A model generated the notes under the pieces. The model saw only the letters and a list, made by a program, of their open reading frames with translations, searched no databases and was not told the origin of the DNA. The translations under genes were made by a program, and so were the position numbers. Shown piece by piece: positions 11,050-23,073 of a stretch of DNA of 64,000 bases. How positions within the stretch are numbered: position 1 is the first letter of the stretch; each line of letters starts with the position of its first letter. Origin of the DNA: Escherichia phage vB_EcoM_PHB05. The DNA lies in sequence record NC_052652.1. The stretch is one strand, 5' to 3'.

Positions 11050-11454
11050 TTATTGTAGCTTAAGTGAACTGCGAAGACGTTTCTCTTGCTGATCACGAAT
11101 ATGTTGTGGAACCTCATGAATTGAGTCGTTACCGTGCCTATTTTCAACAACTAAGGAGATAACTTGATAACCAAACTCTTCAGCAAGAGTTAAATAAGGT
11201 TTAAGTTCTTTCTCTGTGGTTGAAGTGTTAGAGACAATAATCTTTTTAATATTAGATGCCATAGCATCACGAACAATACTCTGACACCATGCGTGTGCTT
11301 TACCTACATTCTCTGGCTTCCAATCGTAAACACCACTTTCTGTGTAATGATATTGATCTGCCTCACAGATAGGCCAATAACCTTCAGAAATAATTTCTGC
11401 TACTGTAGATTTACCTGCACCTGAAACACCACGTAAAATGATAAGTTGTTTCAT
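11050..11454 (-). CDS. P-loop kinase, polynucleotide kinase-like
   Basis: Walker A GVSGAGKST at N-terminus; start abuts stop of upstream ligase-like gene. Confidence 0.5.
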   Translation of the reverse strand: MKQLIILRGVSGAGKSTVAEIISEGYWPICEADQYHYTESGVYDWKPENVGKAHAWCQSIVRDAMASNIKKIIVSNTSTTEKELKPYLTLAEEFGYQVISLVVENRHGNDSIHEVPQHIRDQQEKRLRSSLKLQ

Positions 11455-12387
11455 TTAGCCTCCAAAGAAGTTTTCTATTTCTTTACGTCGCTCTTGTGGA
11501 TCTAAAGCAGCCCATTGAGTCTTAGTAAAGTTGTTTCGAAGCCATTCTAGCAAAGTATAATATTCTTCGTCAACAATTTGTTTAGCATTTTTTGGGTTGT
11601 CCCAAATCATATCCCACTTCTTATTGCCACCACGCATAAGGAATTTCTTAGCAAGATAATATGGTGACTTAATCTTTAACAGCAAGTTAAACGGATAGTT
11701 TGTTTCCCGAACAACAAACCCTTCGTGCTTACAATGTTTAGACATTTCAACAACATCTGAAAATTTAATCATCGGATAAACTTCAGGACGTTTAAATTTT
11801 GTAATAGATGCAATCCCATCAAGCACACCTTCGGGTAGCATGAAACTTGTCCCATCAAGATTTTGAATTCTTGCTCCAATTAAGTATGCGCCTGGTTCTT
11901 CTTCGACAATATGTGGATCAGAAGGATCACAGATTTCAAAAAGGAAAGTTGCTTTTGCACTTTCTGTCCACTTAATGAAATATTCTATGTCATCACACTC
12001 GGAAACAATATGGTTCTTGGCAAGAGTTGCAAAATCTGACTCTAGGCTCCCTGTTGTTGATACAATAAGTTGCCCTTTGTACACACCTACAGATGCCATA
12101 AAACCGTTTACTTTACGGACAGCATCTACAAGCTGGTCTGCTGGAAGATCTGTACCATTCTCAAAACGATTAAAGATTTTAGTAAAAGGCCAGATAACAA
12201 CATTGTCTTCTGAGTCAACAACCAACCCACGACAATCTAGGAGTCGTTTGTCAACGTTCCACAAGTTATCCCAGAATACATTGTTTTTGTATTTAAGTAC
12301 AGCAAGACCAGCATACTCTCCAGATTTAACTTCTTTTTTATGCACTAAACCTTTTGCAATCAGGTCATCACAATTGAACTTAGCCAC
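11455..12387 (-). CDS. RNA ligase-like nucleotidyltransferase
   Basis: Motifs RKVNG (I), EGFVV (IV), LLKIKSP (V); GTG start after AAGGAGA. Confidence 0.5.
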   Translation of the reverse strand: MAKFNCDDLIAKGLVHKKEVKSGEYAGLAVLKYKNNVFWDNLWNVDKRLLDCRGLVVDSEDNVVIWPFTKIFNRFENGTDLPADQLVDAVRKVNGFMASVGVYKGQLIVSTTGSLESDFATLAKNHIVSECDDIEYFIKWTESAKATFLFEICDPSDPHIVEEEPGAYLIGARIQNLDGTSFMLPEGVLDGIASITKFKRPEVYPMIKFSDVVEMSKHCKHEGFVVRETNYPFNLLLKIKSPYYLAKKFLMRGGNKKWDMIWDNPKNAKQIVDEEYYTLLEWLRNNFTKTQWAALDPQERRKEIENFFGG

Positions 12388-12388
12388 C

Positions 12389-12940
12389 TTAATCTCCTTT
12401 GATTATCTTATGATGGTCTACAACAACAATATCACGCTTATCCATAATAGAGATGATTTCGTCAAAATGCAAGATTTTTCCGTGTGCATCCCAACCAACA
12501 TCCAACATTTTCCCATACAAATGATCAGGGAATGATCCGTGAGAGTGCCCGTGTAGCATGATTGATCCATGCCCTTGTTTATTCCAAGCAGCCATAGGGT
12601 AATGACTTAAGACGAAGAACAGTTTCTGATATTTCACTTCGTCATAATACACCACCTCGCCATATTCTGCAAGCACTTCTCGGTGTTTGCTGTAATCATG
12701 GTTCCCAACACAGTAAGTGATATCACCTTGAAGACGTGAAGCAATTTTACGGGTATCTTCTTCAGTCCCGAAACAGAAGTCGCCCAAATGCCACATCTTG
12801 ACACCAGGACTCGTAGCACATTTATTCCATGCTTCAATCAGTGCTTCTGTCATATGCTCCATATCTTCCCACGGGCGATATTCAGGAGCAAACTCTCGAA
12901 TACGTTTGTGCATAAAATGCAAATCACTTGTAATAAACAT
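12389..12940 (-). CDS. calcineurin-like metallophosphoesterase
   Basis: SDLHF, GDFCFG, GNHD, GHSH metal-binding motifs. Confidence 0.65.
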   Translation of the reverse strand: MFITSDLHFMHKRIREFAPEYRPWEDMEHMTEALIEAWNKCATSPGVKMWHLGDFCFGTEEDTRKIASRLQGDITYCVGNHDYSKHREVLAEYGEVVYYDEVKYQKLFFVLSHYPMAAWNKQGHGSIMLHGHSHGSFPDHLYGKMLDVGWDAHGKILHFDEIISIMDKRDIVVVDHHKIIKGD

Positions 12941-13344
12941 TAGTATAATCCCTCGCTGAATAGTTCACTGTCGTGACCATTTCTTTCATAGTTAATTTGT
13001 TTGGCGTTATCTGCAATGATATAAGCATCTTTGCGACTCCACCAATTATAATATTGATCAATAAACCCTTGATTATCAGGTAAGCAAAACAGTTTATCGA
13101 TCAATCCTGCATCTTTTAAAACATTAAGTTGTGCAGATAGTACAGGATTTGCATGCCTAACACAAGGAATAATTAACTCTTCGCCATTGTTGAGAATATA
13201 CTTATTCGCAGCGCAGACTATAACACGTTGAGCATAGTGATCCTCACCAATCCAAGTAAGAGGTTGGTAACAAATATCATGTTGATTAGTAGCGCACATC
13301 AATTTTCTACATACTCTTCGTCTGTATGTATATCGTAAAAGCAA
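12940..13344 (-). CDS. hypothetical protein, translationally coupled to phosphoesterase
   Basis: Stop overlaps downstream start (TAATG). Confidence 0.35.
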   Translation of the reverse strand: MLLRYTYRRRVCRKLMCATNQHDICYQPLTWIGEDHYAQRVIVCAANKYILNNGEELIIPCVRHANPVLSAQLNVLKDAGLIDKLFCLPDNQGFIDQYYNWWSRKDAYIIADNAKQINYERNGHDSELFSEGLY

Positions 13345-13454
13345 TCTTCAAAAGTTGCAAGTGCTTTTTCTACATCGGGCCAATGGTTAGTGTGTTTGTA
13401 TATATAAAACCCATCCCCTTCATCTACCCAAATAACATAAAGCATAACACCTCC

Positions 13455-13829
13455 TTAATAGTTAACACGTTTAATTTCAACACCATAGGATGAAATAAAA
13501 TTTTCCTTGGCTAACATATATTTACCAGCAGCAGAAGGATTTGATGTATGAACATAGATAGTTTTAAGAGCATCCCATTCACCCGCGTACAACATACATT
13601 CTACGTCTAAGAACGCATGATATCCTTCTTGATCTTCTCCAAGATCATTATCGAAGTGTATCTCTGAGATATTATTGAAATTATCTTCATCTGAAACAAA
13701 AGATAACCAATCCTCAAAAGATTTTAACCAAATGGCATCCTCATAACCATAATCTTTAGGATCTCTTAAATCGTCTAACCAAAGAATTTTAGCCACTATC
13801 AACCCCCTTCCTGTTTCTCTTCTTTCCAA
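13455..13829 (-). CDS. hypothetical protein
   Basis: 124-aa ORF. Confidence 0.35.
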   Translation of the reverse strand: MERRETGRGLIVAKILWLDDLRDPKDYGYEDAIWLKSFEDWLSFVSDEDNFNNISEIHFDNDLGEDQEGYHAFLDVECMLYAGEWDALKTIYVHTSNPSAAGKYMLAKENFISSYGVEIKRVNY

Positions 13830-13990
13830 GTTTTACCATTATCTACCAACTTCTTAGAAACAGCAAATCTTTCTCCATTGATATAAAACAAATAAAGAAT
13901 AAAGGATTTTCCTATAGTTACAGTATCTACTACTTTTACACGCTTCACACCTTGCATGTATTTGGCTTTACCTGAATAAATAAGGAACAT
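13799..13990 (-). CDS. hypothetical protein
   Basis: 63-aa ORF. Confidence 0.25.
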   Translation of the reverse strand: MFLIYSGKAKYMQGVKRVKVVDTVTIGKSFILYLFYINGERFAVSKKLVDNGKTWKEEKQEGG

Positions 13991-14268
13991 TACTTATTCC
14001 TTTTGTTGTTGATCACATCTAAAGCTGTGTAAGGTTTGTTTGTACCGCTGTATTCAAGAATAATTGGTACATATTCATAGACCAACTCAAAAGTACCATA
14101 CATAGAATCTGCAACTGAAATAAGCATTTCAGTGCCTTTGTCGTTCTTAATTAATGAAAATCTTGCCCCTGGTTTATTGAGCACTTCATATTTCTTACCT
14201 GCTGTCAGCAAACCTGAATACCATTCATTTTGCACAACAGACAAACACTTCAGATAAGTTTTTCTCAT
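13990..14268 (-). CDS. hypothetical protein
   Basis: 92-aa ORF. Confidence 0.3.
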   Translation of the reverse strand: MRKTYLKCLSVVQNEWYSGLLTAGKKYEVLNKPGARFSLIKNDKGTEMLISVADSMYGTFELVYEYVPIILEYSGTNKPYTALDVINNKRNK

Positions 14269-14606
14269 TTCTTTTTGCTCCTTCTTTTAGGCTTCTCGTA
14301 TAAACCTAACACAGCCGATTCTTTTGCGCAAATAGGAACTGACTTCATTCCTCGTTTTTTAGCTTCTGGTAGATTCAAAACCCACCAGCCAAACCAGTAC
14401 AATTCATCTTCTGTGAAAGGATCTGCCATAGGATCTGCATCCCGTTCTTCAAATTTAGCAAGAGCTTCTTCTATCTTTTCTATTGGAGTATCAAAGACAA
14501 AAGCCTCTGTGTCAAATTTTTGTTTCTTAGGAGCGGCTTTTGCCGCCCCATCTTTAGATGCGCGCTTTGTTACGGATCGCTTCTTCGGTGTTTTCGCCAT
14601 CAACAA
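14265..14606 (-). CDS. hypothetical protein with Lys-rich basic N-terminus
   Basis: MAKTPKKRSVTKRASKDGAAKAAPKKQK basic tail. Confidence 0.35.
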   Translation of the reverse strand: MLMAKTPKKRSVTKRASKDGAAKAAPKKQKFDTEAFVFDTPIEKIEEALAKFEERDADPMADPFTEDELYWFGWWVLNLPEAKKRGMKSVPICAKESAVLGLYEKPKRRSKKK

Positions 14607-14793
14607 CCTCCATGCGGTGTAAGAAATCTTGCTGGAATCGCCAATACTGTTGACCAGTCCTTACATCTTCGTAGATCACAACAGGATCAAATACTTTAGA
14701 TACACCCGCTGGTTTAGGAAAGCCAACTACACGATATAAACCGCCTTTGCTAATACAAGAATATGTTACATCAGTTAAAATTTCTTTTTTCAT
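14554..14793 (-). CDS. hypothetical protein
   Basis: 79-aa ORF. Confidence 0.3.
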   Translation of the reverse strand: MKKEILTDVTYSCISKGGLYRVVGFPKPAGVSKVFDPVVIYEDVRTGQQYWRFQQDFLHRMEVVDGENTEEAIRNKARI

Positions 14794-14987
14794 TTCTTAA
14801 TAAACTCCAATACAGGTACGTGATCAGCAGTTAAAGTTACACAATTGTAACTTACCTTTTCAACTTCAGAGAATGCTTCAACCCATAGCAAGAAATTCTC
14901 TTTAGCTTCTTCATAATTCAATGTTGACTTAACAACATGGAACTCACCAAGGATTACTCTATAGATTGTTTGCATAGTTTGATTCAT
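14790..14987 (-). CDS. hypothetical protein
   Basis: 65-aa ORF. Confidence 0.3.
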   Translation of the reverse strand: MNQTMQTIYRVILGEFHVVKSTLNYEEAKENFLLWVEAFSEVEKVSYNCVTLTADHVPVLEFIKK

Positions 14988-15053
14988 TTATTTTTCCTTT
15001 GTTTAAAATGTGTTAAACAATCGCAAATGCTTGTTACGCACTTTGTGATCCCA

Positions 15054-15461
15054 CTAATTAACGTCAGCACTATGATTGTTGAGAGTATAGGATACTCCAT
15101 CGCCCAAGTCAACATGAATCTCAACTCCTAACTGTCTTTCTAATGGTAAACGTTTTGAGAATTGATAATTACAAAGTTTACAGTCTAAGTCAAGCAACTC
15201 ATGTTTGCTTAAACCTGCAACGATAACTTTGCTTCCGACTGTCCACTCAATGCCTTCAAAGTTATCTTTTCTTTTCAAAATGTCAAGTAAGAAGATGATT
15301 TGTTGCCATTCCGTAGATAAGTCTTCTTCATAGAAGGCAGAACAAAAAGTTTTATCATCGTAGAAAGCATACATTATGCCTCCATCTATTGTTTCACTTC
15401 TAACGTAACGTGTGACCCTCATTATTCCCTCCTGTATAGCTCTGTAACGAGCTAATAGCAC
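15054..15461 (-). CDS. hypothetical protein
   Basis: 135-aa ORF, first gene of leftward block. Confidence 0.35.
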   Translation of the reverse strand: MLLARYRAIQEGIMRVTRYVRSETIDGGIMYAFYDDKTFCSAFYEEDLSTEWQQIIFLLDILKRKDNFEGIEWTVGSKVIVAGLSKHELLDLDCKLCNYQFSKRLPLERQLGVEIHVDLGDGVSYTLNNHSADVN

Positions 15462-15553
15462 CTAAGATATGCAATCACCTTACCTCACAGTAAAACTCGT
15501 TACAATCGTTTTTAGGAGGTTCAGGTTGTACTTAAAAATAATCTAAAAAGGTG

Positions 15554-15582
15554 TTGACAAACGCAAAAAAGTATGCTACCCT
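15554..15582 (+). promoter_or_regulatory. sigma70-like promoter candidate TTGACA-N17-TACCCT
   Basis: Perfect -35 hexamer; weak -10. Confidence 0.3.
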
Positions 15583-15763
15583 AACCCCCGAAAAACGCCG
15601 AGCGCAGCGAGGGGGTGTTATCTAATCTTGTGATACATGATCTAACAGACAACTGAGTAGTCTACATATAGCACTATGTTATGTCTATAATACTAACATA
15701 CATGCTCTATACTAACAATAGATTATTTATTAATTTTATTATTAATTAAATAATAAATATCTA

Positions 15764-15792
15764 TTGACTTTAGATCTATCTGTATGTAGAGT
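15764..15792 (+). promoter_or_regulatory. sigma70-like promoter TTGACT-N17-TAGAGT upstream of prs
   Basis: Hexamers with 17-nt spacer about 40 nt before the prs start. Confidence 0.5.
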
Positions 15793-15831
15793 AGAGAACA
15801 TAAAGTCCTAACTCAACTAAGGAGATAAAGA

Positions 15832-16725
15832 ATGAAAGTTAGTATTCTGCATGGTGTTGACTGTTATGTTACTGATGTAGACGTTAAAGTGTTTACATTC
15901 TCTGGTGGAGAACAACATGTTCAATTAGATACGAATCTATCAGGTTTCAATCATGCTACAGACAGAATCTTACTCACTTTAGAAGTAAGATCTGCTAAAG
16001 ACTTGATGACTTTGGTTATGACTAAGAATGCATTGGACAATATGCTATATCATAAACCATATTGTGTTGATTTACTCATGTTGTATGTGCCGTATGCACG
16101 ACAAGACAGAGTGTGTGAGCCTGGGGAAGCATTCGGAGTTAAAGCATTTGCTTCTATAATTAATTCATTAAATTTCTCACGTGTTATCGTTGCTGATCCG
16201 CATAGTGATGTTACTCCAGCAGTGTTTGACAGACTCTGTGTAATACCTCAAGAAGAGATTGCTTACGAAACTTTAAAGTGGAAGTTACGTATGGAGAATT
16301 TTGCTCTTGTTAGCCCTGATGGTGGTGCTCTTAAGAAAATATTTAAATTATCTAAGAAAATGTCTTTAGATGTGTTCTGTGCAGAGAAGGTTAGAGATAC
16401 CGCAACAGGTGCTATTGTTCGTACAGACATTTCTGTACAGGATTTCAATAAGCGTAACCTGATGATCGTAGATGATATCTGTGATGGTGGTAGAACTTTT
16501 ATTGAATTGGCTAAAGTGCTACGTGCTCGTAACGCAGGTAAGATTGAGCTATATGTTACGCACGGTATCTTTTCTAAAGGTCTTAAAGAGTTAAGTGAGC
16601 ACTTTGACTGCATTCATTCTCTTAATGTGTGGGAAGATAACATCCAAGAAGATTCTGGTGTTCTTGTTAAGAATCAGTCAGATTTGCAACAACAAATTGT
16701 ATCTCCATACGTGTGGAATTTTTAA
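15832..16725 (+). CDS. prs: ribose-phosphate pyrophosphokinase (PRPP synthetase)
   Basis: LMLYVPYARQDR and PRPP-binding MIVDDICDGGRTF motifs; AAGGAGA RBS. Confidence 0.7.
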   Translation: MKVSILHGVDCYVTDVDVKVFTFSGGEQHVQLDTNLSGFNHATDRILLTLEVRSAKDLMTLVMTKNALDNMLYHKPYCVDLLMLYVPYARQDRVCEPGEAFGVKAFASIINSLNFSRVIVADPHSDVTPAVFDRLCVIPQEEIAYETLKWKLRMENFALVSPDGGALKKIFKLSKKMSLDVFCAEKVRDTATGAIVRTDISVQDFNKRNLMIVDDICDGGRTFIELAKVLRARNAGKIELYVTHGIFSKGLKELSEHFDCIHSLNVWEDNIQEDSGVLVKNQSDLQQQIVSPYVWNF

Positions 16726-16735
16726 ATAATAAGTG

Positions 16736-16764
16736 TTGACAATAGGGAGTATGCTTAGTAAGAT
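16736..16764 (+). promoter_or_regulatory. promoter TTGACA-N17-TAAGAT overlapping 8-bp inverted repeat
   Basis: Spacer/-10 region contains GGGAGTAT...ATACTCCC palindrome. Confidence 0.45.
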
Positions 16765-16796
16765 ACTCCCACATTAACAAACAAGGAGACATAACT

Positions 16797-18530
16797 ATGA
16801 ATATTTTTGCACCTTTTGCTACTGATTGGTACAAACCTGGTCACAAGCAGATGTACAACCAAAATACAAAACTTATTTTCTCTAATTTAACTCCTCGTAA
16901 TGATAAAAACTTTGCGCACTATGCAGATCGTGAAGCACGTGGTGTGATTGTTTTAGGTATTCGTCGAGCAGTCACTGATGCTCTTGTAACTATGTGGGAT
17001 AGCTTCTTTAAAATGTCTCGTAGTGCAGCAGTAAATAAATTTTATCGTATGTCTAAAAATGCATTAGGTGCTTCTGCTCCTTCTGCTGAATGTTGGGGAG
17101 AATTGCACGATTTAGGTTATCTTCCGCTGGAAGTTCGATCTCTGCCAGAGGGTGTTTTGTGTCCTATTGGTGTTCCTGTGTTTACTGTGCATAATACTTT
17201 AGAAAAATTCTTTTGGTTAACTAACTATGTGGAAACACTATTGTCAGATGAAACTTGGAAGACAATGACTAATGCCACAGCAGCTTTTCAGTATAAGCGT
17301 ATCGCTATGGCATATGCGATGGCAACGTGTGATAATATTGATCACGTTAACTTCCAGTGTCATGACTTTAGCCTACGTGGTTTAAGTAATATCGAAGATG
17401 GTTATAAGAGTGGTATCGCTCACTTGGCATCGTTCACAGGAACAGATAATATTCTGGCTATTGAAACTGTGCATGACTATTATGGTATTGATTATGATCA
17501 GTTTGTTGCAGGTTCGATTCCGGCAACAGAACATTCAGTAGCAACGACTAACATTGGAGCTATTGTTGAAGATCTGAAGAAACATTTCCCACATCTTAAA
17601 GATGATGTAGATGGGCTTCGTTATGTAGCAGAAAAAGAGTTTCTTCGTCGTTATATCGAAGAAATTGTTCCAGAAGGTTTTTGTTCATATGTAGCAGACT
17701 CTTATGACTATTGGGCTGTATTGACTCGCATTCTGGTAGAATTGAAAGATTCCATTATGTCACGAAATGGTCGTCTTGTTATTCGTCCAGATTCAGGAGA
17801 TCCGGTTAAAGTTGTTGCAGGATACAATGTTGAATCTTTTGATAACTATGAAGACCTCTTAAATAATGGTATTGCGACAGCCACTGAAGTAGTTCATTTG
17901 GCTGATGTTAATAAGTATTACAATGTTCTTCAGGATTGCAGTATTGCTGACTGTATTGATGAAACTTATGAGATTCCTTATTGTGAAGCAGTAGGTTCTA
18001 TTCAAATCCTTTGGGAAGTGTTTGGTGGTACTATCAACCGAAAAGGCTACAAGGTTCTTGATCAGCATATCGGTATGATTTATGGTGATTCTATTACTGT
18101 TGAACGAGAACACGAGATCTTACGCCGACTGAAGAAGAAAGGTTTTGCAGCTTCCAATATTGTATTTGGTGTTGGTAGTTATACTTATCAGTTCAATACA
18201 CGAGATACTTTTGGTTTTGCTGTTAAAGCAACAGGTAGTATCATCGGTGAACACGAAATTTTGGTAAGTAAGGAGCCTAAAACTGATCCTGGTAAACGCT
18301 CTGCAAAAGGTTTTATTAAGGTTGTTAAGGATACCAATGGTAATCTTTCTCTTGTAGATAATCTTTCTTTTAAAGATATCCAGGATGAAGACAATGAGTT
18401 ACAAGTTATCTTCAAGAATGGTAAGGTTATTACACCACAAGTAGAAGGTCGTGATGAAACATTCACTGATATCCGCAACCGTGTTGATGTAGAGGTTCTT
18501 CGTACTATGGGAACCATCCAGGTTGACTAA
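16797..18530 (+). CDS. nadV: nicotinamide phosphoribosyltransferase (Nampt/NadV)
   Basis: 577-aa ORF; N-terminus FAPFATDWYKPGHKQMY characteristic of the Nampt family; AAGGAGA RBS. Confidence 0.75.
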   Translation: MNIFAPFATDWYKPGHKQMYNQNTKLIFSNLTPRNDKNFAHYADREARGVIVLGIRRAVTDALVTMWDSFFKMSRSAAVNKFYRMSKNALGASAPSAECWGELHDLGYLPLEVRSLPEGVLCPIGVPVFTVHNTLEKFFWLTNYVETLLSDETWKTMTNATAAFQYKRIAMAYAMATCDNIDHVNFQCHDFSLRGLSNIEDGYKSGIAHLASFTGTDNILAIETVHDYYGIDYDQFVAGSIPATEHSVATTNIGAIVEDLKKHFPHLKDDVDGLRYVAEKEFLRRYIEEIVPEGFCSYVADSYDYWAVLTRILVELKDSIMSRNGRLVIRPDSGDPVKVVAGYNVESFDNYEDLLNNGIATATEVVHLADVNKYYNVLQDCSIADCIDETYEIPYCEAVGSIQILWEVFGGTINRKGYKVLDQHIGMIYGDSITVEREHEILRRLKKKGFAASNIVFGVGSYTYQFNTRDTFGFAVKATGSIIGEHEILVSKEPKTDPGKRSAKGFIKVVKDTNGNLSLVDNLSFKDIQDEDNELQVIFKNGKVITPQVEGRDETFTDIRNRVDVEVLRTMGTIQVD

Positions 18531-18601
18531 ATAAAAACTTCGTGATAAGATTAAGGTAAGGAGAGCCTACAACTGCCCTGGATGGGCTTCACGAAGGATT
18601 T

Positions 18602-18823
18602 ATGAAACAACATAATTTTTATTTTCGTTGCCGAGCCTGTAACAGACACTTGACTAATCATTCCCGTAGAGACAGGAATGGTAATATTCAAGAGTCGGAT
18701 CTATGCTCGATTTGTACAAGTTTGGCATTCGATGACAGTCCCGAAAGGGTTTATCAACATCAAAGTGTAACTGATCTTCTTCTAAATTACACAGCACCAG
18801 AGGAGGAATTAGATTTCACATAA
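18602..18823 (+). CDS. small zinc-ribbon protein
   Basis: CRACN...CSIC paired CxxC motifs. Confidence 0.4.
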   Translation: MKQHNFYFRCRACNRHLTNHSRRDRNGNIQESDLCSICTSLAFDDSPERVYQHQSVTDLLLNYTAPEEELDFT

Positions 18824-18836
18824 TTAAGGAAACAGT

Positions 18837-18908
18837 ATGTCTACAGAAATTATTTTTGGCTTATCTGTTTTATTGCTATTGTATCTTTTGTATGCGGTTA
18901 TACACTAG
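18837..18908 (+). CDS. very small hydrophobic peptide (23 aa)
   Basis: MSTEIIFGLSVLLLLYLLYAVIH after AAGGAA RBS. Confidence 0.2.
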   Translation: MSTEIIFGLSVLLLLYLLYAVIH

Positions 18909-18942
18909 GTTACAGATCAAGAAAAAATATTGTAAAAACTAG

Positions 18943-18972
18943 TTGACAACATAGCTAGTTATTTGCTAAGAT
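18943..18972 (+). promoter_or_regulatory. promoter TTGACA-N18-TAAGAT
   Basis: Consensus -35 with TAAGAT -10. Confidence 0.45.
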
Positions 18973-19002
18973 AAGCACAAGTTAAACAAAAAGGAGAAAA
19001 CT

Positions 19003-19269
19003 ATGACAGAACGTACTTATGGTAAAGAATTGATTGAGAAGCACGTATTGATTGATAATAAAGGTGGAGCAATCTTTATTTTTGAACCTGAATCAGTTCT
19101 TACTGAAAACGAAAATGGTAGCGTTAGCCTTAAAACAGAAAGTTTGGTAATTGACTTCCTTGCTCTTCTGGATGAAATGGGGCTTCCTCACGAAGAAGAA
19201 GCAGCTATTGCTTTGATTACAGTTCTTCTGGAGAAACGCGAAGCTGGTGAAATGACCCAGTATGCTTAA
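19003..19269 (+). CDS. hypothetical acidic protein
   Basis: 88-aa ORF with AAAGGAG RBS. Confidence 0.45.
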   Translation: MTERTYGKELIEKHVLIDNKGGAIFIFEPESVLTENENGSVSLKTESLVIDFLALLDEMGLPHEEEAAIALITVLLEKREAGEMTQYA

Positions 19270-19276
19270 TATTCAA

Positions 19277-19349
19277 GGTTCCATAGCTCACTGACGAGAG
19301 CGCACACCTCATAAGTGTCGAGGGCAGGGATTGTAACCCTGGGGAACCA
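19277..19349 (+). tRNA. tRNA-like, anticodon CAU (Met/Ile2-type), atypical D and T loops
   Basis: Hand-folded cloverleaf; anticodon loop CTCATAA; T-loop ATTGTAA and D-loop without GG; CCA follows. Confidence 0.35.
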
Positions 19350-19383
19350 CCATTTAAAAGGAGGTGCTATGCATCTCCTATAT

Positions 19384-19469
19384 GCAAGTGTGGTGGAATT
19401 GGTGATACACATTGTGCTTAAAACGCAACGCTTAAATGATTGAGGGTTCGAATCCCTCCACTTGCACCA
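19384..19469 (+). tRNA. tRNA-Leu (anticodon UAA), type II, CCA encoded
   Basis: Acceptor GCAAGTG/CACTTGC, T-arm GAGGGTTCGAATCCCTC, anticodon loop CTTAAAA. Confidence 0.65.
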
Positions 19470-19471
19470 AC

Positions 19472-19577
19472 GCCTAGTAGGGTATTTGGTAATTCCGAGG
19501 CCATCAAAGCCTGAAAAATATGTTAGACCGCTTTGTCTAACTAAATACGAAATATGGTTCGATTCCATAACTAGGCT
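19472..19577 (+). tRNA. 106-nt tRNA-like element, anticodon loop CATCAAA (UCA), 6-bp D-stem with 4-nt loop, 39-nt extra arm
   Basis: Perfect acceptor GCCTAGT/ACTAGGC and canonical T-arm TATGGTTCGATTCCATA; internal 7-bp hairpin GTTAGAC/GTCTAAC. Confidence 0.35.
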
Positions 19578-19610
19578 TCAATTTAAATAATAATTTTTAG
19601 TAAAAATATC

Positions 19611-19639
19611 TTGACATTCACTTAGTTTTTTGTTATAGT
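19611..19639 (+). promoter_or_regulatory. promoter TTGACA-N17-TATAGT inside tRNA cluster
   Basis: Strong hexamers immediately upstream of the tRNA at 19651. Confidence 0.5.
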
Positions 19640-19650
19640 TGCTTTGAAAA

Positions 19651-19729
19651 CGGGGTGTATCTCACCTGACTTCTAATCAGGCGTTAACCGAGTAATTGGA
19701 GTATGCAGGTTCGAATCCTGTCACCCCGA
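19651..19729 (+). tRNA. tRNA-Arg-like (anticodon UCU) without a conventional D-arm
   Basis: Perfect acceptor CGGGGTG/CACCCCG, anticodon arm CCTGA-CTTCTAA-TCAGG, T-arm GCAGGTTCGAATCCTGT, CCA encoded; only 5 nt where D-arm should be. Confidence 0.4.
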
Positions 19730-19751
19730 CCAAAAAGTTTTTAAAAACTAC

Positions 19752-19781
19752 TTGACAAGCAAGATAGTTTTATGTTAGATT
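19752..19781 (+). promoter_or_regulatory. promoter candidate TTGACA-N18-TAGATT
   Basis: Consensus -35, moderate -10. Confidence 0.35.
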
Positions 19782-19796
19782 TAAAGTATGATAACG

Positions 19797-19883
19797 GGAA
19801 GGTAGGGCGCAGCGGTGCGCAACCAGGTTTGAACCCTGGCCCATTGTAGCGATACGGTGATGGTTCGACTCCATTATCTTCCT
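19797..19883 (+). tRNA. tRNA-Ser (anticodon UGA), type II
   Basis: Acceptor GGAAGGT/ATCTTCC, anticodon loop TTTGAAC, long variable arm, T-arm GATGGTTCGACTCCATT, CCA encoded. Confidence 0.65.
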
Positions 19884-19904
19884 CCAAATTCAACTAGGAG
19901 CTTT

Positions 19905-20057
19905 ATGAATTATAAAACTATTGGACAGGTTGTTACAGGAGTTAAGATTGTAGATAATAAGGTTGTTTATGAGTATTCTAATCTTCAACAATCTGAAGAT
20001 GGTAAGAATATTCGTATGGTAAAAGCAGAACAAAAAGACTCCGGTTGTTTTGAATAA
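19905..20057 (+). CDS. small hypothetical protein embedded in tRNA cluster
   Basis: 50-aa ORF MNYKTIGQVV... after AGGAG RBS. Confidence 0.35.
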   Translation: MNYKTIGQVVTGVKIVDNKVVYEYSNLQQSEDGKNIRMVKAEQKDSGCFE

Positions 20058-20065
20058 TTAAGAAC

Positions 20066-20148
20066 GGTAGATTGGTGAAATGGTAGCCACAACAGTTTGC
20101 TAAACTGTCGTCGGAAACGGCGTGTAGGTTCAAGTCCTACATCTACCG
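20066..20148 (+). tRNA. tRNA-Ser (anticodon GCU), type II
   Basis: Acceptor GGTAGAT/ATCTACC, anticodon loop TTGCTAA, T-arm GTAGGTTCAAGTCCTAC, CCA encoded. Confidence 0.65.
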
Positions 20149-20277
20149 CCAAGTTATCTTTAATGTAGCTTGTAATCTTACTTTAATAGAGTAAATCTTC
20201 GGCAAGTGGCGGTAACCACTTTACCGATATCCCATAGTCAAGTGCCGCAAACACTGGCTATTTTAAAGATAATTTAT

Positions 20278-20350
20278 ACATCGTTAGCTCAGTTGGTAGA
20301 GCAAGGGGCTTTTAACTCCAAGGTCGAAGGTTCGAATCCTTCACGATGTA
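20278..20350 (+). tRNA. tRNA-Lys (anticodon UUU)
   Basis: D-arm GCTCAGTTGGTAGAGC, anticodon loop CTTTTAA, T-arm GAAGGTTCGAATCCTTC, CCA encoded. Confidence 0.65.
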
Positions 20351-20358
20351 CCAAACAC

Positions 20359-20442
20359 GTAGGTATCGCATAGCGGCAATTGCTGGAGACTGTAAATCTC
20401 CTGCCCTTCGGGGCTTCGTTGGTTCGAGTCCAACTACCTGCA
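20359..20442 (+). tRNA. tRNA-Tyr (anticodon GUA), type II
   Basis: Anticodon arm GGAGA-CTGTAAA-TCTCC, T-arm GTTGGTTCGAGTCCAAC, CCA encoded. Confidence 0.65.
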
Positions 20443-20452
20443 CCAAATTAAA

Positions 20453-20534
20453 GATGGATTGGCCTAGTGGTTGGGCGACGGACTGTTAATCCGTGAACGA
20501 AAGTTCTAGCAAGGTTCAAATCCTTGATCCATCG
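20453..20534 (+). tRNA. tRNA-Asn (anticodon GUU) with unusually long variable arm
   Basis: Perfect acceptor GATGGAT/ATCCATC, anticodon arm ACGGA-CTGTTAA-TCCGT, 15-nt variable region with GAAC-GAAA-GTTC hairpin, T-arm CAAGGTTCAAATCCTTG. Confidence 0.5.
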
Positions 20535-20544
20535 CCAGAATTAT

Positions 20545-20621
20545 GGACTTGTAGAGTTAAGGTAAACCCCCAGTCGCCAAGAGGCTTCTGGAATTGCAGG
20601 TATCGAATCCTGCCGAGTCCA
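20545..20621 (+). tRNA. tRNA-like element with T-arm and acceptor pairing but no clear anticodon arm (possible pseudo-tRNA)
   Basis: Acceptor GGACTTG/CGAGTCC, T-arm GCAGGTATCGAATCCTGC with 8-nt loop; no CCA. Confidence 0.25.
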
Positions 20622-20627
20622 AGTATT

Positions 20628-20698
20628 GCTCCTATCGTATAACGGCTATTACGGTTGCCTTGTAAGCAACTTATCAGGGTTCGAGTCCTTGTGGGAGC
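20628..20698 (+). tRNA. tRNA-Thr (anticodon UGU)
   Basis: Anticodon arm GTTGC-CTTGTAA-GCAAC, T-arm CAGGGTTCGAGTCCTTG, CCA encoded. Confidence 0.65.
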
Positions 20699-20719
20699 AC
20701 CAATTTTAACTCTAAAGGA

Positions 20720-21049
20720 GTGTATGTGACAGAAAAAGAGTTAGAGAAATATTTTAATATCAATGTTTTCGATGGTTTTGATGATATTGAAGATGTTGAA
20801 AGATATTATGAAGTAGAGTTAGATAAGGATAACATTGTAATTCTTTCTGCCACTTATGATTGTGCATATTATGAAGGTGAATCTCACGTTTATTTTTATG
20901 ATATGAAAACATCTTTGTTTTATGAAGTACACGCATATCATTGTTCTTGTTATGGCTTAGAAGGTCAGTGGGAACCTGAAGAAATAGGTGATTTGGATTT
21001 TACTATTGCATATCTAAACAGACGTGGTGCATCTACTATTTTAAAATAA
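20720..21049 (+). CDS. hypothetical protein
   Basis: 109-aa ORF with GTG start after AAAGGAG. Confidence 0.45.
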   Translation: MYVTEKELEKYFNINVFDGFDDIEDVERYYEVELDKDNIVILSATYDCAYYEGESHVYFYDMKTSLFYEVHAYHCSCYGLEGQWEPEEIGDLDFTIAYLNRRGASTILK

Positions 21050-21063
21050 ATATCAAAAGCCTC

Positions 21064-21093
21064 TTGACAAAGGGGCTAATAATATGTTAGAGT
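21064..21093 (+). promoter_or_regulatory. promoter TTGACA-N18-TAGAGT
   Basis: Same hexamer pair as the prs promoter. Confidence 0.45.
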
Positions 21094-21104
21094 AATATTG
21101 TTAA

Positions 21105-21176
21105 GCGGGTATAGTGTTAATGGTAGCATATGAGGTTTCCACCCTCCAGGTGCAGGTTCAAGTCCTGTTACTCGCT
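21105..21176 (+). tRNA. tRNA-Gly (anticodon UCC)
   Basis: Anticodon loop TTTCCAC, T-arm GCAGGTTCAAGTCCTGT, CCA encoded. Confidence 0.6.
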
Positions 21177-21278
21177 CCAAGATTATTTAAATGGAATCGC
21201 TAGAGAAAATTTCTCTTTTCGCTCATGGTTTTCTCCTTCAAACTCTAGCGGTTCTTTTTAAGTGATTTTTAGTTTTAT

Positions 21279-21350
21279 TGGAGATTAGCCTAGTGGGAAG
21301 GCAACGGCCTTTGAAGTCGTGATGACTAGGTTCGATTCCTAGATCTCCAG
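21279..21350 (+). tRNA. tRNA-Gln (anticodon UUG)
   Basis: U1-A72 acceptor, anticodon arm ACGGC-CTTTGAA-GTCGT, T-arm CTAGGTTCGATTCCTAG, CCA encoded. Confidence 0.65.
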
Positions 21351-21360
21351 CCAGTATTTA

Positions 21361-21433
21361 CAGTGCGTAGCGCAGTTGGTAGCGTGGGAGCTTTGGATGC
21401 TTCGGGTCGCAGGTTCGAGTCCTGCCGCACTGA
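21361..21433 (+). tRNA. tRNA-Pro (anticodon UGG)
   Basis: C1-G72 acceptor, D-arm GCGCAGTTGGTAGCGT, anticodon loop TTTGGAT, T-arm GCAGGTTCGAGTCCTGC, CCA encoded. Confidence 0.65.
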
Positions 21434-21441
21434 CCAAATTT

Positions 21442-21513
21442 GCAGAGATAGCTGAGACGGATTAGTGCTACCCTGAAAAGGTAGAAAGGATGGATCGTTA
21501 CCATCTCTCTGCA
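21442..21513 (+). tRNA. tRNA-Phe (anticodon GAA)
   Basis: Anticodon arm CTACC-CTGAAAA-GGTAG, T-loop ATCGTTA (non-canonical), CCA encoded. Confidence 0.55.
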
Positions 21514-21593
21514 CCAAATAACACCATCCAAGGAGTAGACTTGGTTAACTGTCAATAGCACATTGAGGCTTCTTACAGTGGTGTGCTTATTAT

Positions 21594-21674
21594 GGCTAAG
21601 TGGTGGAATGGTATACACGATACGCTTAGAACGTATTGCCCCAAGGGATTGTGAGTTCGAGTCTCACCTTAGCT
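21594..21674 (+). tRNA. tRNA-Leu (anticodon UAG), type II
   Basis: Anticodon arm ATACG-CTTAGAA-CGTAT, T-arm GTGAGTTCGAGTCTCAC, CCA encoded. Confidence 0.6.
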
Positions 21675-21765
21675 ACCATATCTAAGAGATATCATAGGGT
21701 TTGCAACGGATATCTACCGTCCTGTTAAGGATACCACGCCAAGACGGGTTATAAAGGGTTAGCCA

Positions 21766-21838
21766 TTGATAGTGTGAAGCTGGCGTTTCGAGTGCTTTCA
21801 TAAGGCATTGCGAGAAGAGTTCGATTCTCTTACTATCA
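21766..21838 (+). tRNA. tRNA with anticodon CAU (Met or Ile2)
   Basis: Anticodon loop TTCATAA, T-arm AAGAGTTCGATTCTCTT, CCA encoded. Confidence 0.55.
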
Positions 21839-21856
21839 ACCAAATTACTACAGATT

Positions 21857-21932
21857 GCGCGGGATAGAGGAGTCTGGTCGTCCTCGCCAGTTTCATATGC
21901 TGGAGATCATCGGTTCGAATCCGATTCCCGCC
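21857..21932 (+). tRNA. tRNA with anticodon CAU (Met or Ile2)
   Basis: D-arm GAGG...CCTC, anticodon arm CCAGT-TTCATAT-GCTGG, T-arm ATCGGTTCGAATCCGAT, CCA encoded; position 1 mismatched. Confidence 0.55.
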
Positions 21933-21993
21933 TCCATTAAATACCTCCCTTCTGGTGTAATGATTAAATTGCATTGACACTTCAAGGAACTCA

Positions 21994-22073
21994 TAGCCGG
22001 GTAGATTTAAAAGAGTATGGTACTCAATATGGCTCCAAACCATAGATCAAGGGGTTCGATTCCTCACCTTGCT
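21994..22073 (+). tRNA. tRNA-Trp-like (anticodon CCA), atypical 5' half
   Basis: Anticodon arm TATGG-CTCCAAA-CCATA and T-arm GGGGTTCGATTCC are clear; acceptor and D region do not fold canonically by hand. Confidence 0.4.
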
Positions 22074-22081
22074 GCCAATTA

Positions 22082-22154
22082 TTGTGGTATCGTACAGATG
22101 GTTAGTACACTCGACCGATAATCGAGAAACAACGGTTCGACTCCGTTTACCACG
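22082..22154 (+). tRNA. tRNA-Ile (anticodon GAU)
   Basis: D-arm GTAC...GTAC, anticodon arm CTCGA-CCGATAA-TCGAG, T-arm AACGGTTCGACTCCGTT, CCA encoded. Confidence 0.6.
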
Positions 22155-22159
22155 ACCAA

Positions 22160-22236
22160 ACTCCGTGCCAGCGGTGTCTTCGAAGAACAAGCCTAGTTCC
22201 TTCTGAGATGGAGGGGTGCGACTCCTTAACGCACAT
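22160..22236 (+). tRNA. tRNA-like element (T-arm variant GGTGCGACTCC); anticodon unresolved, possibly GCC
   Basis: T-arm differs from neighbouring GGTTCGACTCC by one substitution; CCA-like end at 22237-22239. Confidence 0.25.
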
Positions 22237-22269
22237 ACCACTACTACTAAATACTTATCAGGAGATATT

Positions 22270-22539
22270 ATGTATACTTTAAAAGTAATTCGCAAGTTTC
22301 CTCAAGAAGAGGAAGTAAGAATTTATAACACTGTACCCTTCGTAGTAAATGAAGAAGAATTCTTTTATTGCTTAGAAGATGAAGTAATTATTCAATATCA
22401 TTGGGAAGGTTACGACAGACAAGATGGTGTTGTAGCTTCTGTGATTGCTGGTGAAAGAGTGTTATTCATTCACAAAACTGAATCAGCATATTTAATGAAT
22501 GATAAAGGACAAACTGTTAAAGTAATTAACAGACCATAA
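22270..22539 (+). CDS. hypothetical protein
   Basis: ATG at 22270 after AGGAGA; 89 aa. Confidence 0.45.
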   Translation: MYTLKVIRKFPQEEEVRIYNTVPFVVNEEEFFYCLEDEVIIQYHWEGYDRQDGVVASVIAGERVLFIHKTESAYLMNDKGQTVKVINRP

Positions 22540-22552
22540 AGAATTTTATAAA

Positions 22553-22576
22553 AGCCTCCTTTTTGGAGGTTTTTTA
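22553..22576 (+). terminator. intrinsic terminator
   Basis: GCCTCC-TTTTT-GGAGG hairpin followed by TTTTTTATT. Confidence 0.6.
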
Positions 22577-22645
22577 TTATCTGTAAAATAAAGATCTTTA
22601 CAAAACGTATAAAATATGTTATCCTTAAGTAAGGAGGTGCATATT

Positions 22646-22936
22646 ATGCCTAAATTGAAAAGAGGTCGAGGTAGACCTACAGCCGAAATGCAACAGATTT
22701 ATGCTATGGATGCTGCACAGGCGCAAGTAAAAGAAATTTTTGCTGGTCGTTATTTAGATGCTATGCGTTACATTGCAGATCTTGTTGTAGATGAAAAGGC
22801 TTCTGCTAATATCAAGTTGACTGCTTCTAAGATCATCAAAGAACAAGTAGAAGAATGGCTGGAAGAACATTATGAATCTATGGAAGAAGAAGATATTCTT
22901 CCAGAAAATTCTCCCCCTCAAAAAATCGTTATCTAA
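22646..22936 (+). CDS. hypothetical protein with basic N-terminus (candidate small terminase or DNA-binding protein)
   Basis: ATG at 22646 after AAGGAGG; MPKLKRGRGRP N-terminus; lies upstream of lysis/packaging genes. Confidence 0.35.
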   Translation: MPKLKRGRGRPTAEMQQIYAMDAAQAQVKEIFAGRYLDAMRYIADLVVDEKASANIKLTASKIIKEQVEEWLEEHYESMEEEDILPENSPPQKIVI

Positions 22937-22983
22937 TTCTCCTCTCTTGGGAACTTTGTTCCCCCTCTCCTTGTTAATTAACA

Positions 22984-23012: not shown

Positions 23013-23073
23013 ATTTATACCTATTGCTTTTATATATGTTTTTATGATATGATTAATACAGGAGGACTATAAA

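What the first reader, a model, noticed from the sequence alone, without database searches (positions are those of the whole stretch)
15832..18530. Phage-encoded PRPP synthetase plus nicotinamide phosphoribosyltransferase (NAD+ salvage module)
prs (PRPP-binding motif MIVDDICDGGRTF) and a Nampt/NadV-family gene are adjacent, each with its own sigma70-like promoter. Together they convert ribose-5-phosphate and nicotinamide to NMN. Phage-encoded NAD+ reconstitution has been linked to countering NAD+-depleting immunity (TIR/SIR2-type effectors). No NMN adenylyltransferase was recognised in this window, so the final step may use a host enzyme or a gene elsewhere.
Basis: partly seen in the sequence, partly recalled or inferred. 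Interest (0 to 1): 0.5.

Follow-up and report, generated by a model that had tools for sequence, protein, structure and literature searches.

The report
Known phage NAD+ rebuilding operon (NARP1)
The two genes are real and adjacent, but they are the already described phage pathway NARP1, which rebuilds NAD+ directly from the ADP-ribose and nicotinamide left by NAD+-destroying bacterial defences, so no third enzyme (NMN adenylyltransferase) is needed.

Summary
The window is a phi92-like E. coli myovirus (Justusliebigvirus), 99.6% identical to phage EC.P2.

This gene pair is the published NARP1 pathway (Osterman et al. 2024). Adps converts ADP-ribose plus ATP to ADPR-pyrophosphate. Namat joins that to nicotinamide, giving NAD+ directly. 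The phi92 and JohannJBalmer pairs, about 98% identical to the window in DNA, are listed in that paper's supplementary tables.

My own tests agree:
- The Nampt-like protein carries the Namat adenine-clamp signature GSYTYQFNTRD. True Nampts, including H. ducreyi NadV, lack its two aromatic residues.
- The Prs-like protein scores 202 bits against an HMM built from four experimentally studied Adps, against 88 bits for E. coli Prs. It keeps the catalytic lysine (K186) and fails every Prs equivalog cut-off.
- No NMNAT homologue exists in the window or in a relative's complete genome.
- No Macro-domain phosphatase flanks the pair, so this is the core two-gene form.

The chemistry (PRPP to NMN) and the "missing NMNAT" puzzle are not. 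Verdict: already known, low interest.

The parts
15764..15792 (+). Sigma70-like promoter candidate upstream of adps (TTGACT-17-TAGAGT, 9/12). It lies in the 370-bp divergent intergenic region 15462-15831, where transcription switches from the - strand to the + strand.
   Evidence: The GC skew changes sign at about 16000. This is a consensus match only.
15832..16725 (+). adps: ADP-ribose pyrophosphate synthetase, a PRPS-like enzyme of 297 aa. Catalytic K186. Acceptor and PP-loop residues F23, R90, H124, D163, D214, D215, C217, D218, G219-G220-R221-T222, F223.
   Evidence: The phi92 and JohannJBalmer genes at this locus are listed in Osterman Table S1 with 'Namat within 10 genes: Yes'.
16736..16764 (+). 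Internal sigma70-like promoter candidate in the 71-bp adps-namat gap (TTGACA-17-TAAGAT, 10/12), followed by the RBS AAGGAGA at 16783-16789.
16797..18530 (+). namat: nicotinamide ADP-ribose transferase with a Nampt fold, 577 aa. Catalytic core D10, Y12, F191, R194, D217, H246, R330, D332, G430-D431. Adenine selectivity-clamp helix GSYTYQFNTRD at aa 460-470 (DNA about 18174-18206). Selectivity-clamp loop N35-D36-K37-N38-F39. Two lineage-specific insertions at about aa 256-277 and 343-399.
   Evidence: The phi92 and JohannJBalmer proteins are listed as 'Adps-associated' in Osterman Table S2.

Best explanation
The locus is a core two-gene NARP1 (NAD+ reconstitution pathway 1) module of a phi92-like E. 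coli phage.

Proposed mechanism:
1. A host NADase defence (SIR2-HerA/Nezha, DSR1/DSR2, type I Thoeris, SEFIR, Kongming and similar) cleaves NAD+ into ADP-ribose and nicotinamide.
2. [quoted passage not shown]
3. Namat (16797-18530) uses Nampt-type chemistry to displace that pyrophosphate with nicotinamide, yielding NAD+ directly.

No PRPP, no NMN and no NMN adenylyltransferase are involved.

Shown here: gene presence and arrangement, clade assignment, conservation of catalytic and specificity residues, absence of NMNAT and of an associated Macro phosphatase, and conservation across the genus. Inferred from characterised homologues at 28-45% identity: the enzyme activities and the anti-defence phenotype.
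For: 1. Literature. Osterman et al. showed that the 'prs'+'nampt' operon of Bas63 counters SIR2-HerA, independently of host pncC and nadR. Purified SPbetaL1 enzymes make ADPR-PP and then NAD+. NARP1 cancels type I Thoeris, DSR1, DSR2, SIR2-HerA and SEFIR. Their Tables S1 and S2 list the phi92 and JohannJBalmer genes as Adps with Namat nearby, and as Namat 'Adps-associated'. Those loci are 97.8-98.1% identical in DNA to window 15500-18700.

2. Namat specificity signature. The published consensus is GSX-phi-X-phi-X-phi-TRD, with adenine-stacking aromatics at positions 3 and 7. The window has G460-S-Y-T-Y-Q-F-N-T-R-D470. Two phage Nampt-like proteins without the signature have GGGLLQ..RD. The closest solved non-Namat, H. 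ducreyi NadV, has GAQTYQRNTRD with no aromatic at positions 3 or 7. Of the 120 closest homologues, 119 have the motif; all of those have Y or F at position 3, and all but three have F or Y at position 7.

3. Structure. An AF2 model (pLDDT 90.8) finds the SPbetaL1 Namat crystal structures 9W5X and 9W5W as best hits (E about 1e-49, TM 0.91), ahead of NadV and mammalian NAMPT.

4. Adps. An HMM of the four experimentally studied Adps (Bas63, SPbetaL1, ICP1, FADO) scores the window protein at 202.5 bits and E. coli Prs at 87.7 bits. The window protein is 40% identical to the structurally characterised ICP1 Adps and 24% to E. coli Prs. The catalytic Lys, the DDICDGG PP loop and the acceptor residues are conserved. 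It fails all Prs equivalog cut-offs, for example 98 bits against 297.

5. No NMNAT. None was found in the window or in the complete genome of relative PD06, by phmmer or in its annotation.

6. Conservation. 54 phage records carry the locus at 95% identity or more, the same number as carry the major capsid gene at 95% or more. This is consistent with a core gene pair of the genus.
Against: - No phi92-type enzyme has been assayed. Identity to the characterised enzymes is only 28-45%.
- The variable selectivity-clamp loop does not follow the published rule exactly. The third residue is Lys, as in Bas63, but the fourth is Asn rather than an aromatic. A conserved Phe follows at position 5.
- ICP1 Adps F92 (adenine contact) is Cys95 here. 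It is Met in Bas63, whose operon was shown to work in vivo.
- The 'loss of C-terminal alpha11-alpha12' signature of Adps is not clear-cut. The tail after the THGIFS motif is 49 aa, against 61 in E. coli Prs and 34-47 in the characterised Adps. AF2 predicts one C-terminal helix at aa 282-294.
- Namat enzymes retain PRPP-dependent NMN synthesis in vitro, so some Nampt-type flux is not excluded.
- NCBIfam and Pfam models cannot separate Namat from Nampt.
Confidence: 0.9

Rival explanations
1. One reading: a true PRPP synthetase plus a true nicotinamide phosphoribosyltransferase make NMN, and a host enzyme (NadR, or PncC followed by NadD and NadE) or an undetected phage NMNAT finishes NAD+ synthesis.
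For: Pfam, NCBIfam and PHROG names say Prs and Nampt. TIGR01251 is just passed (118 against 113) and NF006629 is passed. Namat retains about half of human Nampt's PRPP-to-NMN activity in vitro. The E. coli host has NadR and NadD.
Against: For the homologous Bas63 operon, rescue did not need pncC or nadR, and the SPbetaL1 Prs-like enzyme gave no product in the PRPP-synthetase assay. The window Namat has the adenine clamp that true Nampts lack. The window Adps groups with the characterised Adps rather than with Prs and fails all Prs equivalog cut-offs. No phage NMNAT was found.
Confidence: 0.05
2. The chemistry is NARP1, but the main role is metabolic housekeeping rather than counter-defence. 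The pathway would recycle ADPR and nicotinamide made by phage or host NAD+-consuming enzymes, such as the Sir2-family protein that relatives encode, to keep NAD+ high for replication.
For: Relative PD06 encodes a Sir2-family protein (PF02146, 1.3e-22) and other nucleotide-metabolism genes. NARP1 also occurs in non-mobile bacterial chromosome regions, where a housekeeping role has been proposed. Adps-like proteins occur on cyanobacterial chromosomes.
Against: In Bas63, ADPR-PP appeared only when the defence system was present, and the deletion phenotype was defence-specific. The pair sits at the head of a transcription unit with host-type promoter-like sites, which would fit early expression, although the timing is untested.
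Confidence: 0.07
3. The module supplies PRPP for phage nucleotide synthesis, alongside the nearby ribonucleotide reductase, thymidylate synthase and thymidine kinase genes. The Nampt-like gene would be an unrelated neighbour.
For: Nucleotide-metabolism genes (NrdA/B, ThyA, Tdk) lie in the leftward operon of the same region.
Against: In 97% of Adps-clade genes a Namat is adjacent. The same pairing is seen in a metagenomic relative whose proteins are 43% (Adps) and 49% (Namat) identical to the window's. The specificity evidence is as above.
Confidence: 0.02

Closest known systems
NARP1 (Adps + Namat) of Escherichia phage Bas63/JohannRWettstein, Bacillus phages SPbetaL1 and FADO, and Vibrio phage ICP1 (Osterman et al. 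2024; Namat structures 9W5X and 9W5W, PMC12774641; ICP1 Adps structures, PMC13586617)
   Same: Gene order adps then namat on one strand. PRPS-like and Nampt-like folds. The catalytic Lys and PP loop of Adps. The Namat catalytic core and the GSX-phi-X-phi-X-phi-TRD adenine clamp. No NMNAT in the genome. The phi92 and JohannJBalmer genes at this locus already appear in the paper's homologue tables.
   Different: Only 28-40% (Adps) and 41-45% (Namat) identical to the characterised enzymes. A 71-bp gap with a promoter-like site separates the genes, whereas in SPbetaL1 they overlap. Namat has a helical insertion of about 23 aa (about aa 256-277) and a structured insertion with a net gain of about 46 aa (aa 343-399). 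SPbetaL1 and ICP1 lack both; Bas63 has a longer version of the second. The selectivity-clamp loop is N-D-K-N-F, against S-D-K-W-F in Bas63 and T-S-R in SPbetaL1.
NARP2 (Nampt + bifunctional Nmnat) of Vibrio phage KVP40
   Same: A phage-encoded Nampt-fold enzyme that uses nicotinamide to restore NAD+ against NAD+-depleting defences.
   Different: NARP2 uses PRPP, passes through NMN and needs a phage Nmnat. No Nmnat is present here, the partner is a PRPS-like enzyme, and the window enzyme has the Namat clamp rather than the GGGLLQ-type helix.
NARP1-AP (Adps + Macro-domain phosphatase Adpp + Namat) of Vibrio phage Gary
   Same: The core Adps and Namat enzymes.
   Different: No Macro-domain gene lies within the flanking genes (Pfam hmmscan). 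By analogy, this phage's module would not handle the ADPR-1''-phosphate made by aRES. A Macro-domain protein exists elsewhere in a relative's genome (PD06 gp061), inside a HAD / PRTase_3 / Ter cluster outside this window.
Haemophilus ducreyi NadV (9KE8, 9KEO) and mammalian or Xanthomonas NAMPT
   Same: The same fold (TM 0.88-0.92) and the same catalytic residues.
   Different: NadV has GAQTYQRNTRD and NAMPT-type enzymes have GGALLQ-type helices, none with the two adenine-stacking aromatics. They use PRPP to make NMN.

Membership tests
NARP1 | A PRPS-like gene and a Nampt-like gene adjacent on the same strand (Namat within 10 genes of Adps) | tested here: met
   The ORFs 15832-16725 and 16797-18530 are both on the + strand, 71 bp apart.
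NARP1 | The PRPS-like protein belongs to the Adps clade rather than to canonical Prs | tested here: met
   An HMM of four experimentally studied Adps gives 202.5 bits for the window protein and 87.7 bits for E. coli Prs. blastp gives 157 bits to ICP1 Adps and 72 bits to E. coli Prs. All Prs equivalog cut-offs are failed. The phi92 and JohannJBalmer genes are in Osterman Table S1. I did not build a broad phylogeny with many Prs sequences.
NARP1 | Adps catalytic lysine on the beta-hairpin (ICP1 K185, SPbetaL1 K162) | tested here: met
   K186 aligns with it and is invariant in 50 homologues.
NARP1 | Adps acceptor and PP-loop residues (ICP1 F18, R87, H121, D161, D212, D213, D216, PP loop) | tested here: met
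   F23, R90, H124, D163, D214, D215, D218 and C217-T222 are conserved. ICP1 F92 is C95 here and M102 in Bas63.
NARP1 | Adps lacks the C-terminal alpha11-alpha12 filament and regulatory module of PRPS | tested here: inconclusive
   HMM alignments to Prs end at about aa 250-257. The tail is 49 aa against 61 in E. coli Prs. AF2 predicts one C-terminal helix, aa 282-294, with no sequence similarity to PRPS alpha12.
NARP1 | Namat selectivity-clamp helix GSX-phi-X-phi-X-phi-TRD with aromatics at positions 3 and 7 | tested here: met
   GSYTYQFNTRD at aa 460-470 (Y462, F466). The signature is absent from NadV and from Nampts.
NARP1 | Namat selectivity-clamp loop supplying a third adenine-stacking residue (third residue R, K or Y; if K or Y, the fourth residue stacks) | tested here: inconclusive
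   The loop is N35-D36-K37-N38-F39. The third residue is Lys as required, but the fourth is Asn. F39 is nearly invariant and H41 invariant in the clade. A ligand-bound model would be needed to decide.
NARP1 | Nampt-type catalytic core, including the phospho-histidine | tested here: met
   D10, Y12, F191, R194, D217, H246 (ATEHS), R330, D332 and G430-D431 are all invariant in 49 homologues.
NARP1 | Enzymatic conversion of ADPR + ATP to ADPR-PP, then + nicotinamide to NAD+; anti-defence phenotype | not testable with these tools
   Shown only for homologues from SPbetaL1, Bas63, FADO, ICP1 and P. foliorum.
NARP2 | A phage-encoded Nmnat in the same genome | tested here: not met
   The best phmmer E-value for NadR or NadD against six-frame ORFs of the window and the whole PD06 genome was 2.3. 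The PD06 'nucleotidyltransferase' gp088 is only a weak PolyA_pol head match.
NARP1-AP | A Macro-domain ADPR-1''-phosphate phosphatase (PF14519, PF01661 or PF20016) within two genes of NARP1 | tested here: not met
   None of ten flanking ORFs hits a Macro family. hmmscan is less sensitive than the HHpred search used in the paper.
Canonical ribose-phosphate diphosphokinase (Prs) | Reaches the curated NCBIfam equivalog or subfamily scores | tested here: not met
   Only the broad TIGR01251 model is barely passed (118.3 against 113). NF002320 gives 98 against 297, NF002095 gives 97.5 against 296, and the others are lower.
Canonical Nampt/NadV | PRK09198 model score, and a PRPP-specific active-site entrance without the adenine clamp | tested here: not met
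   The model score is passed (463 against 405), but that model does not separate Namat from Nampt. The active-site entrance carries the Namat adenine clamp.

The most novel reading that the evidence does not exclude
The phi92-clade Namat differs from the characterised enzymes in two ways. It has a confidently predicted small alpha/beta subdomain (aa 343-399) inserted directly after the catalytic RPDSGDP strand, and a helical extension at about aa 256-277. It also has its own promoter-like site. The most novel reading not excluded is that these features give the enzyme an extra property. That could be regulation, binding of a partner, or a broadened donor range such as a physiologically used Nampt (PRPP) mode expressed independently of Adps.
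Probability: 0.07. Interest if true: 0.35.

Novelty: already known. Interest (0 to 1): 0.15.

Why it matters
The finding shows how database names (Prs, Nampt) mislead. Read naively, the pathway looks incomplete because it lacks an NMNAT, whereas the published biochemistry shows a complete two-enzyme route from the debris of NAD+ cleavage back to NAD+.

For this phage it predicts resistance to NADase-type defences: SIR2-HerA, DSR1/2, type I Thoeris, SEFIR and Kongming. Because there is no operon-linked Macro phosphatase, it also predicts sensitivity to aRES-type defence. That is useful for choosing phi92-like therapeutic phages, but it adds no new biology.

Tried and rejected
1. NMNAT search. 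I looked in the window and across the full genome of relative PD06, using annotation in three further regions and phmmer with NadR and NadD. Nothing was found. The annotated 'nucleotidyltransferase' gp088, just outside the window, is only a weak PolyA_pol-head match and not an NMNAT.

2. NARP1-AP accessory phosphatase. I scanned ten flanking ORFs with Pfam and PHROGs. No Macro-domain protein turned up, only families of unknown function and one cREC_REC domain.

3. Possible accessory gene between adps and namat in a metagenomic relative (L014). A 207-aa gene sits there, but it is an HNH homing endonuclease (1.8e-28 to PD06 gp087).

4. The 'C-terminal truncation' signature of Adps. I tested it by tail length and by AF2. 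The result is inconclusive for this protein.

5. Fold search of the Adps model. It returns only canonical PRPS (TM 0.70-0.77). The ICP1 Adps structures are not in the library used, which covers entries released up to April 2026.

6. Rfam scan of 12000-24000. It found only tRNAs.

7. PP-loop sequence as a discriminator between Prs and Adps. It is not crisp: DDICDGGRT here against DDMIDTGGT in E. coli Prs. I did not rely on it.
Full report
**Observation**

- The first ORF matches phosphoribosyltransferase and PRPP-synthetase models: PF00156, PF14572, TIGR01251 at 118 bits (cut-off 113), and PHROG 619 at 3.8e-91. It contains MIVDDICDGGRTF.
- The second ORF matches PF04095, NF006629 (463 bits) and PHROG 448 'nicotinamide phosphoribosyl transferase' at 1.4e-188.
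- Each gene has a Shine-Dalgarno sequence and a sigma70-like match upstream: 15764 TTGACT-17-TAGAGT and 16736 TTGACA-17-TAAGAT.
- The TTGACA-N17-TAAGAT motif recurs 5 times in the window against 0.82 expected, three of them in nearby + strand gaps.

**Setting**

The window is a phi92-like E. coli myovirus of the genus Justusliebigvirus.
- Region 15500-18700 is 99.6% identical to phage EC.P2 and 97.8-98.1% identical to phi92 and BASEL phage JohannJBalmer.
- The pair opens the rightward transcription unit, after a 370-bp divergent intergenic region where the GC skew flips.
- Downstream lie two small ORFs of unknown function, a tRNA array and then lysis and structural genes (16 tRNAs by ARAGORN; Rfam adds one at 19651-19729).
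- 54 phage records carry the locus at 95% identity or more. The same number carry the major capsid gene at 95% or more, so the pair looks like a core feature of the genus.

**What it is**

The combination of a 'Prs' gene next to a 'Nampt' gene is the published NAD+ reconstitution pathway 1, NARP1 (Osterman et al., bioRxiv 10.1101/2024.02.11.579819).
- Those authors started from the same Pfam-based reading as the first-stage reader (PRPP, then NMN, then host salvage) and refuted it. [quoted passage not shown]
- Infected cells accumulated ADPR-pyrophosphate.
- The purified SPbetaL1 'Prs' gave no product in the PRPP-synthetase assay but made ADPR-PP from ADPR and ATP. It was renamed Adps.
- The 'Nampt' made NAD+ from ADPR-PP and nicotinamide. 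It was renamed Namat.
- NARP1 cancelled type I Thoeris, DSR1, DSR2, SIR2-HerA and SEFIR. It occurred in 859 of 20,185 phage genomes (4.3%).
- Their Table S1 lists phi92 FR775895_00103 and JohannJBalmer MZ501084_00232 with 'Namat within 10 genes: Yes'. Table S2 lists the neighbouring proteins as 'Adps-associated'. The visible parts of those listed sequences match the window proteins.

This lineage's operon has therefore already been catalogued as NARP1.

**Independent test: Namat**

I fetched the experimentally studied operons: Bas63 (L004), SPbetaL1 (L006) and ICP1 (L001). I added the FADO Adps sequence from the paper's supplement, E. coli Prs (L005) and two phage Nampt-like proteins that lack the Namat signature (Aes508, D482), and aligned them.
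- The Namat crystal-structure paper (PMC12774641) defines a selectivity clamp. Its conserved helix reads GSX-phi-X-phi-X-phi-TRD, and the aromatics at positions 3 and 7 stack on the adenine of ADPR-PP or NAD+.
- The window protein reads G460-S-Y-T-Y-Q-F-N-T-R-D470.
- Aes508 and D482 read GGGLLQ..RD. Xanthomonas Nampt reads GGALLQKVDRD. H. ducreyi NadV, the closest solved non-Namat, reads GAQTYQRNTRD and has neither aromatic. The test therefore discriminates even against the nearest Nampt.
- Of the 120 closest database homologues, 119 have the motif. All of those have Y or F at position 3, and all but three have F or Y at position 7.
- All Nampt-type catalytic residues are present and invariant: D10, Y12, F191, R194, D217, H246, R330, D332, G430-D431.
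- An AlphaFold2 model (pLDDT 90.8, pTM 0.90) has the SPbetaL1 Namat crystal structures 9W5X and 9W5W as best PDB matches, ahead of NadV and mammalian NAMPT.
- The variable clamp loop is N-D-K-N-F. This shares the Lys and the following Phe with Bas63 (S-D-K-W-F) but lacks the aromatic at the fourth position. The third stacking residue is therefore undetermined.

**Independent test: Adps**

- The window protein is 40% identical to ICP1 Adps, whose structures with ADPR/ATP and with ADPR-PP/AMP are published (PMC13586617). It is 32% identical to Bas63 Adps, 28% to SPbetaL1 Adps and 24% to E. coli Prs.
- An HMM of the four experimentally studied Adps, built without the window sequence, scores it at 202.5 bits and E. 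coli Prs at 87.7 bits.
- It fails every NCBIfam Prs equivalog cut-off.
- The catalytic lysine (ICP1 K185, SPbetaL1 K162) is K186. The acceptor and PP-loop residues F23, R90, H124, D163, D214, D215 and D218 are conserved and invariant among 50 homologues.
- ICP1 F92 is Cys here and Met in Bas63.
- The AF2 model (pLDDT 93.3) has a PRPS fold, TM 0.70-0.77 to human and E. coli PRPS.
- The published 'C-terminal alpha11-alpha12 missing' signature is not clear-cut for this protein. Its tail is 12 aa shorter than that of E. coli Prs, yet a single terminal helix is predicted. I score that feature as inconclusive.

**What is absent**

- No NMNAT homologue exists in the window or in the complete genome of relative PD06. 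The best phmmer E-value was 2.3, while the Prs positive control found adps at 8e-17. No such annotation exists either. This separates the locus from NARP2.
- No Macro-domain phosphatase lies among the flanking genes. The module is therefore the core two-gene NARP1 and not NARP1-AP, which is the form that overcomes aRES.

**Differences from the characterised operons**

These are minor.
- Relative to SPbetaL1 Namat, the window Namat has a helical insertion of about 23 aa (about aa 256-277) and a structured insertion with a net gain of about 46 aa (aa 343-399). The second is predicted with pLDDT of roughly 89-96 and follows directly after the RPDSGDP strand.
- The same site holds a longer insertion in Bas63, whose operon works in vivo, so the insertion is compatible with function.
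- The 71-bp gap with a promoter-like site differs from the overlapping genes of SPbetaL1.

**Verdict**

The feature is an already known system whose orthologues in this phage genus were listed in the original paper. Interest is low. What remains unknown is limited to the untested activity of the phi92-type enzymes, the role of the Namat insertions, and expression timing.

Noticed in passing
window 13455-13829 (-), with neighbours to the left (about 10500-13400): A 124-aa protein with a 'cyclic-phosphate processing receiver domain' (PF20274 cREC_REC, 3e-14). In relative PD06 the adjacent genes are a T4-type RNA ligase, a calcineurin-like phosphoesterase and an AAA_33 kinase-like ATPase. Together these look like an RNA-repair module, possibly directed against tRNA-cleaving defences, and they sit close to the phage's own tRNA array.
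   Followed up: partly
window 19651-19729 (+): Rfam finds a tRNA (40 bits) that ARAGORN did not report. Conversely, ARAGORN's tRNAs at 19277-19352, 19797-19886 and 21767-21842 are not in the Rfam gathering-threshold list. The tRNA array begins about 750 bp downstream of namat.
   Followed up: no
window 16736, 18523, 18943 and 19752 (+): A recurring TTGACA-N17/18-TAAGAT promoter-like motif lies in successive + strand intergenic gaps: before namat, before two small ORFs and before tRNA-Ser. The window has 5 copies against 0.82 expected, and none of 100 shuffles reached 5.
   Followed up: partly
protein P0100 (867 aa, metagenomic Namat homologue): A Namat interrupted by an insert of about 300 aa that looks like an intein with a homing endonuclease. 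It sits exactly inside the catalytic RPD|SGDP motif (…VIRPDCYDGE…VMVCGNSGDPV…). I judged this by eye from the sequence only.
   Followed up: no
L014:731-1354 (metagenomic contig); Pectobacterium phages CB7 and phiTE in Osterman Table S2: An HNH homing endonuclease gene sits between adps and namat in a related contig. Namat is split into two ORFs in the CB7-like phages. NARP1 genes appear to be frequent targets of selfish genetic elements.
   Followed up: partly
PHROG phrog_12872 (profile of 547 positions): This PHROG, named 'nicotinamide phosphoribosyl transferase', aligns to the window Adps over profile positions 9-222 and to the window Namat over 221-536. It therefore seems to represent a fused or mis-merged Adps-Namat protein.
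   Followed up: no
outside the window, relative PD06 NC_052653: 32873-39504 and 136087-136899: The phage lineage also encodes a Sir2-family protein (PF02146, 1.3e-22). It further encodes a HAD hydrolase + PRTase_3 (ComF-like) + Macro-domain protein next to genes annotated as TerC membrane protein and tellurite resistance. From recall, I take this to be a Ter-associated nucleoside-metabolite cluster. The Macro protein might act on ADPR derivatives. I did not test any link to NARP1.
   Followed up: partly
literature lead (PMC11370490); not located in the window: The AntiDefenseFinder paper reports the anti-TIR protein Atd1 in Justusliebigvirus phages, so this phage may combine NARP1 with a second counter-measure against TIR-based defence. 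I did not search the window for it.
   Followed up: no
proteins P0181, P0182, P0211 and P0214 (Thorsellia, Geminocystis): Adps-like proteins 43-46% identical to the window protein are encoded on bacterial chromosomes, including cyanobacterial contigs of 3.9-4.2 Mb. This fits published reports of bacterial NARP1. I did not check whether a Namat gene lies next to them.
   Followed up: no
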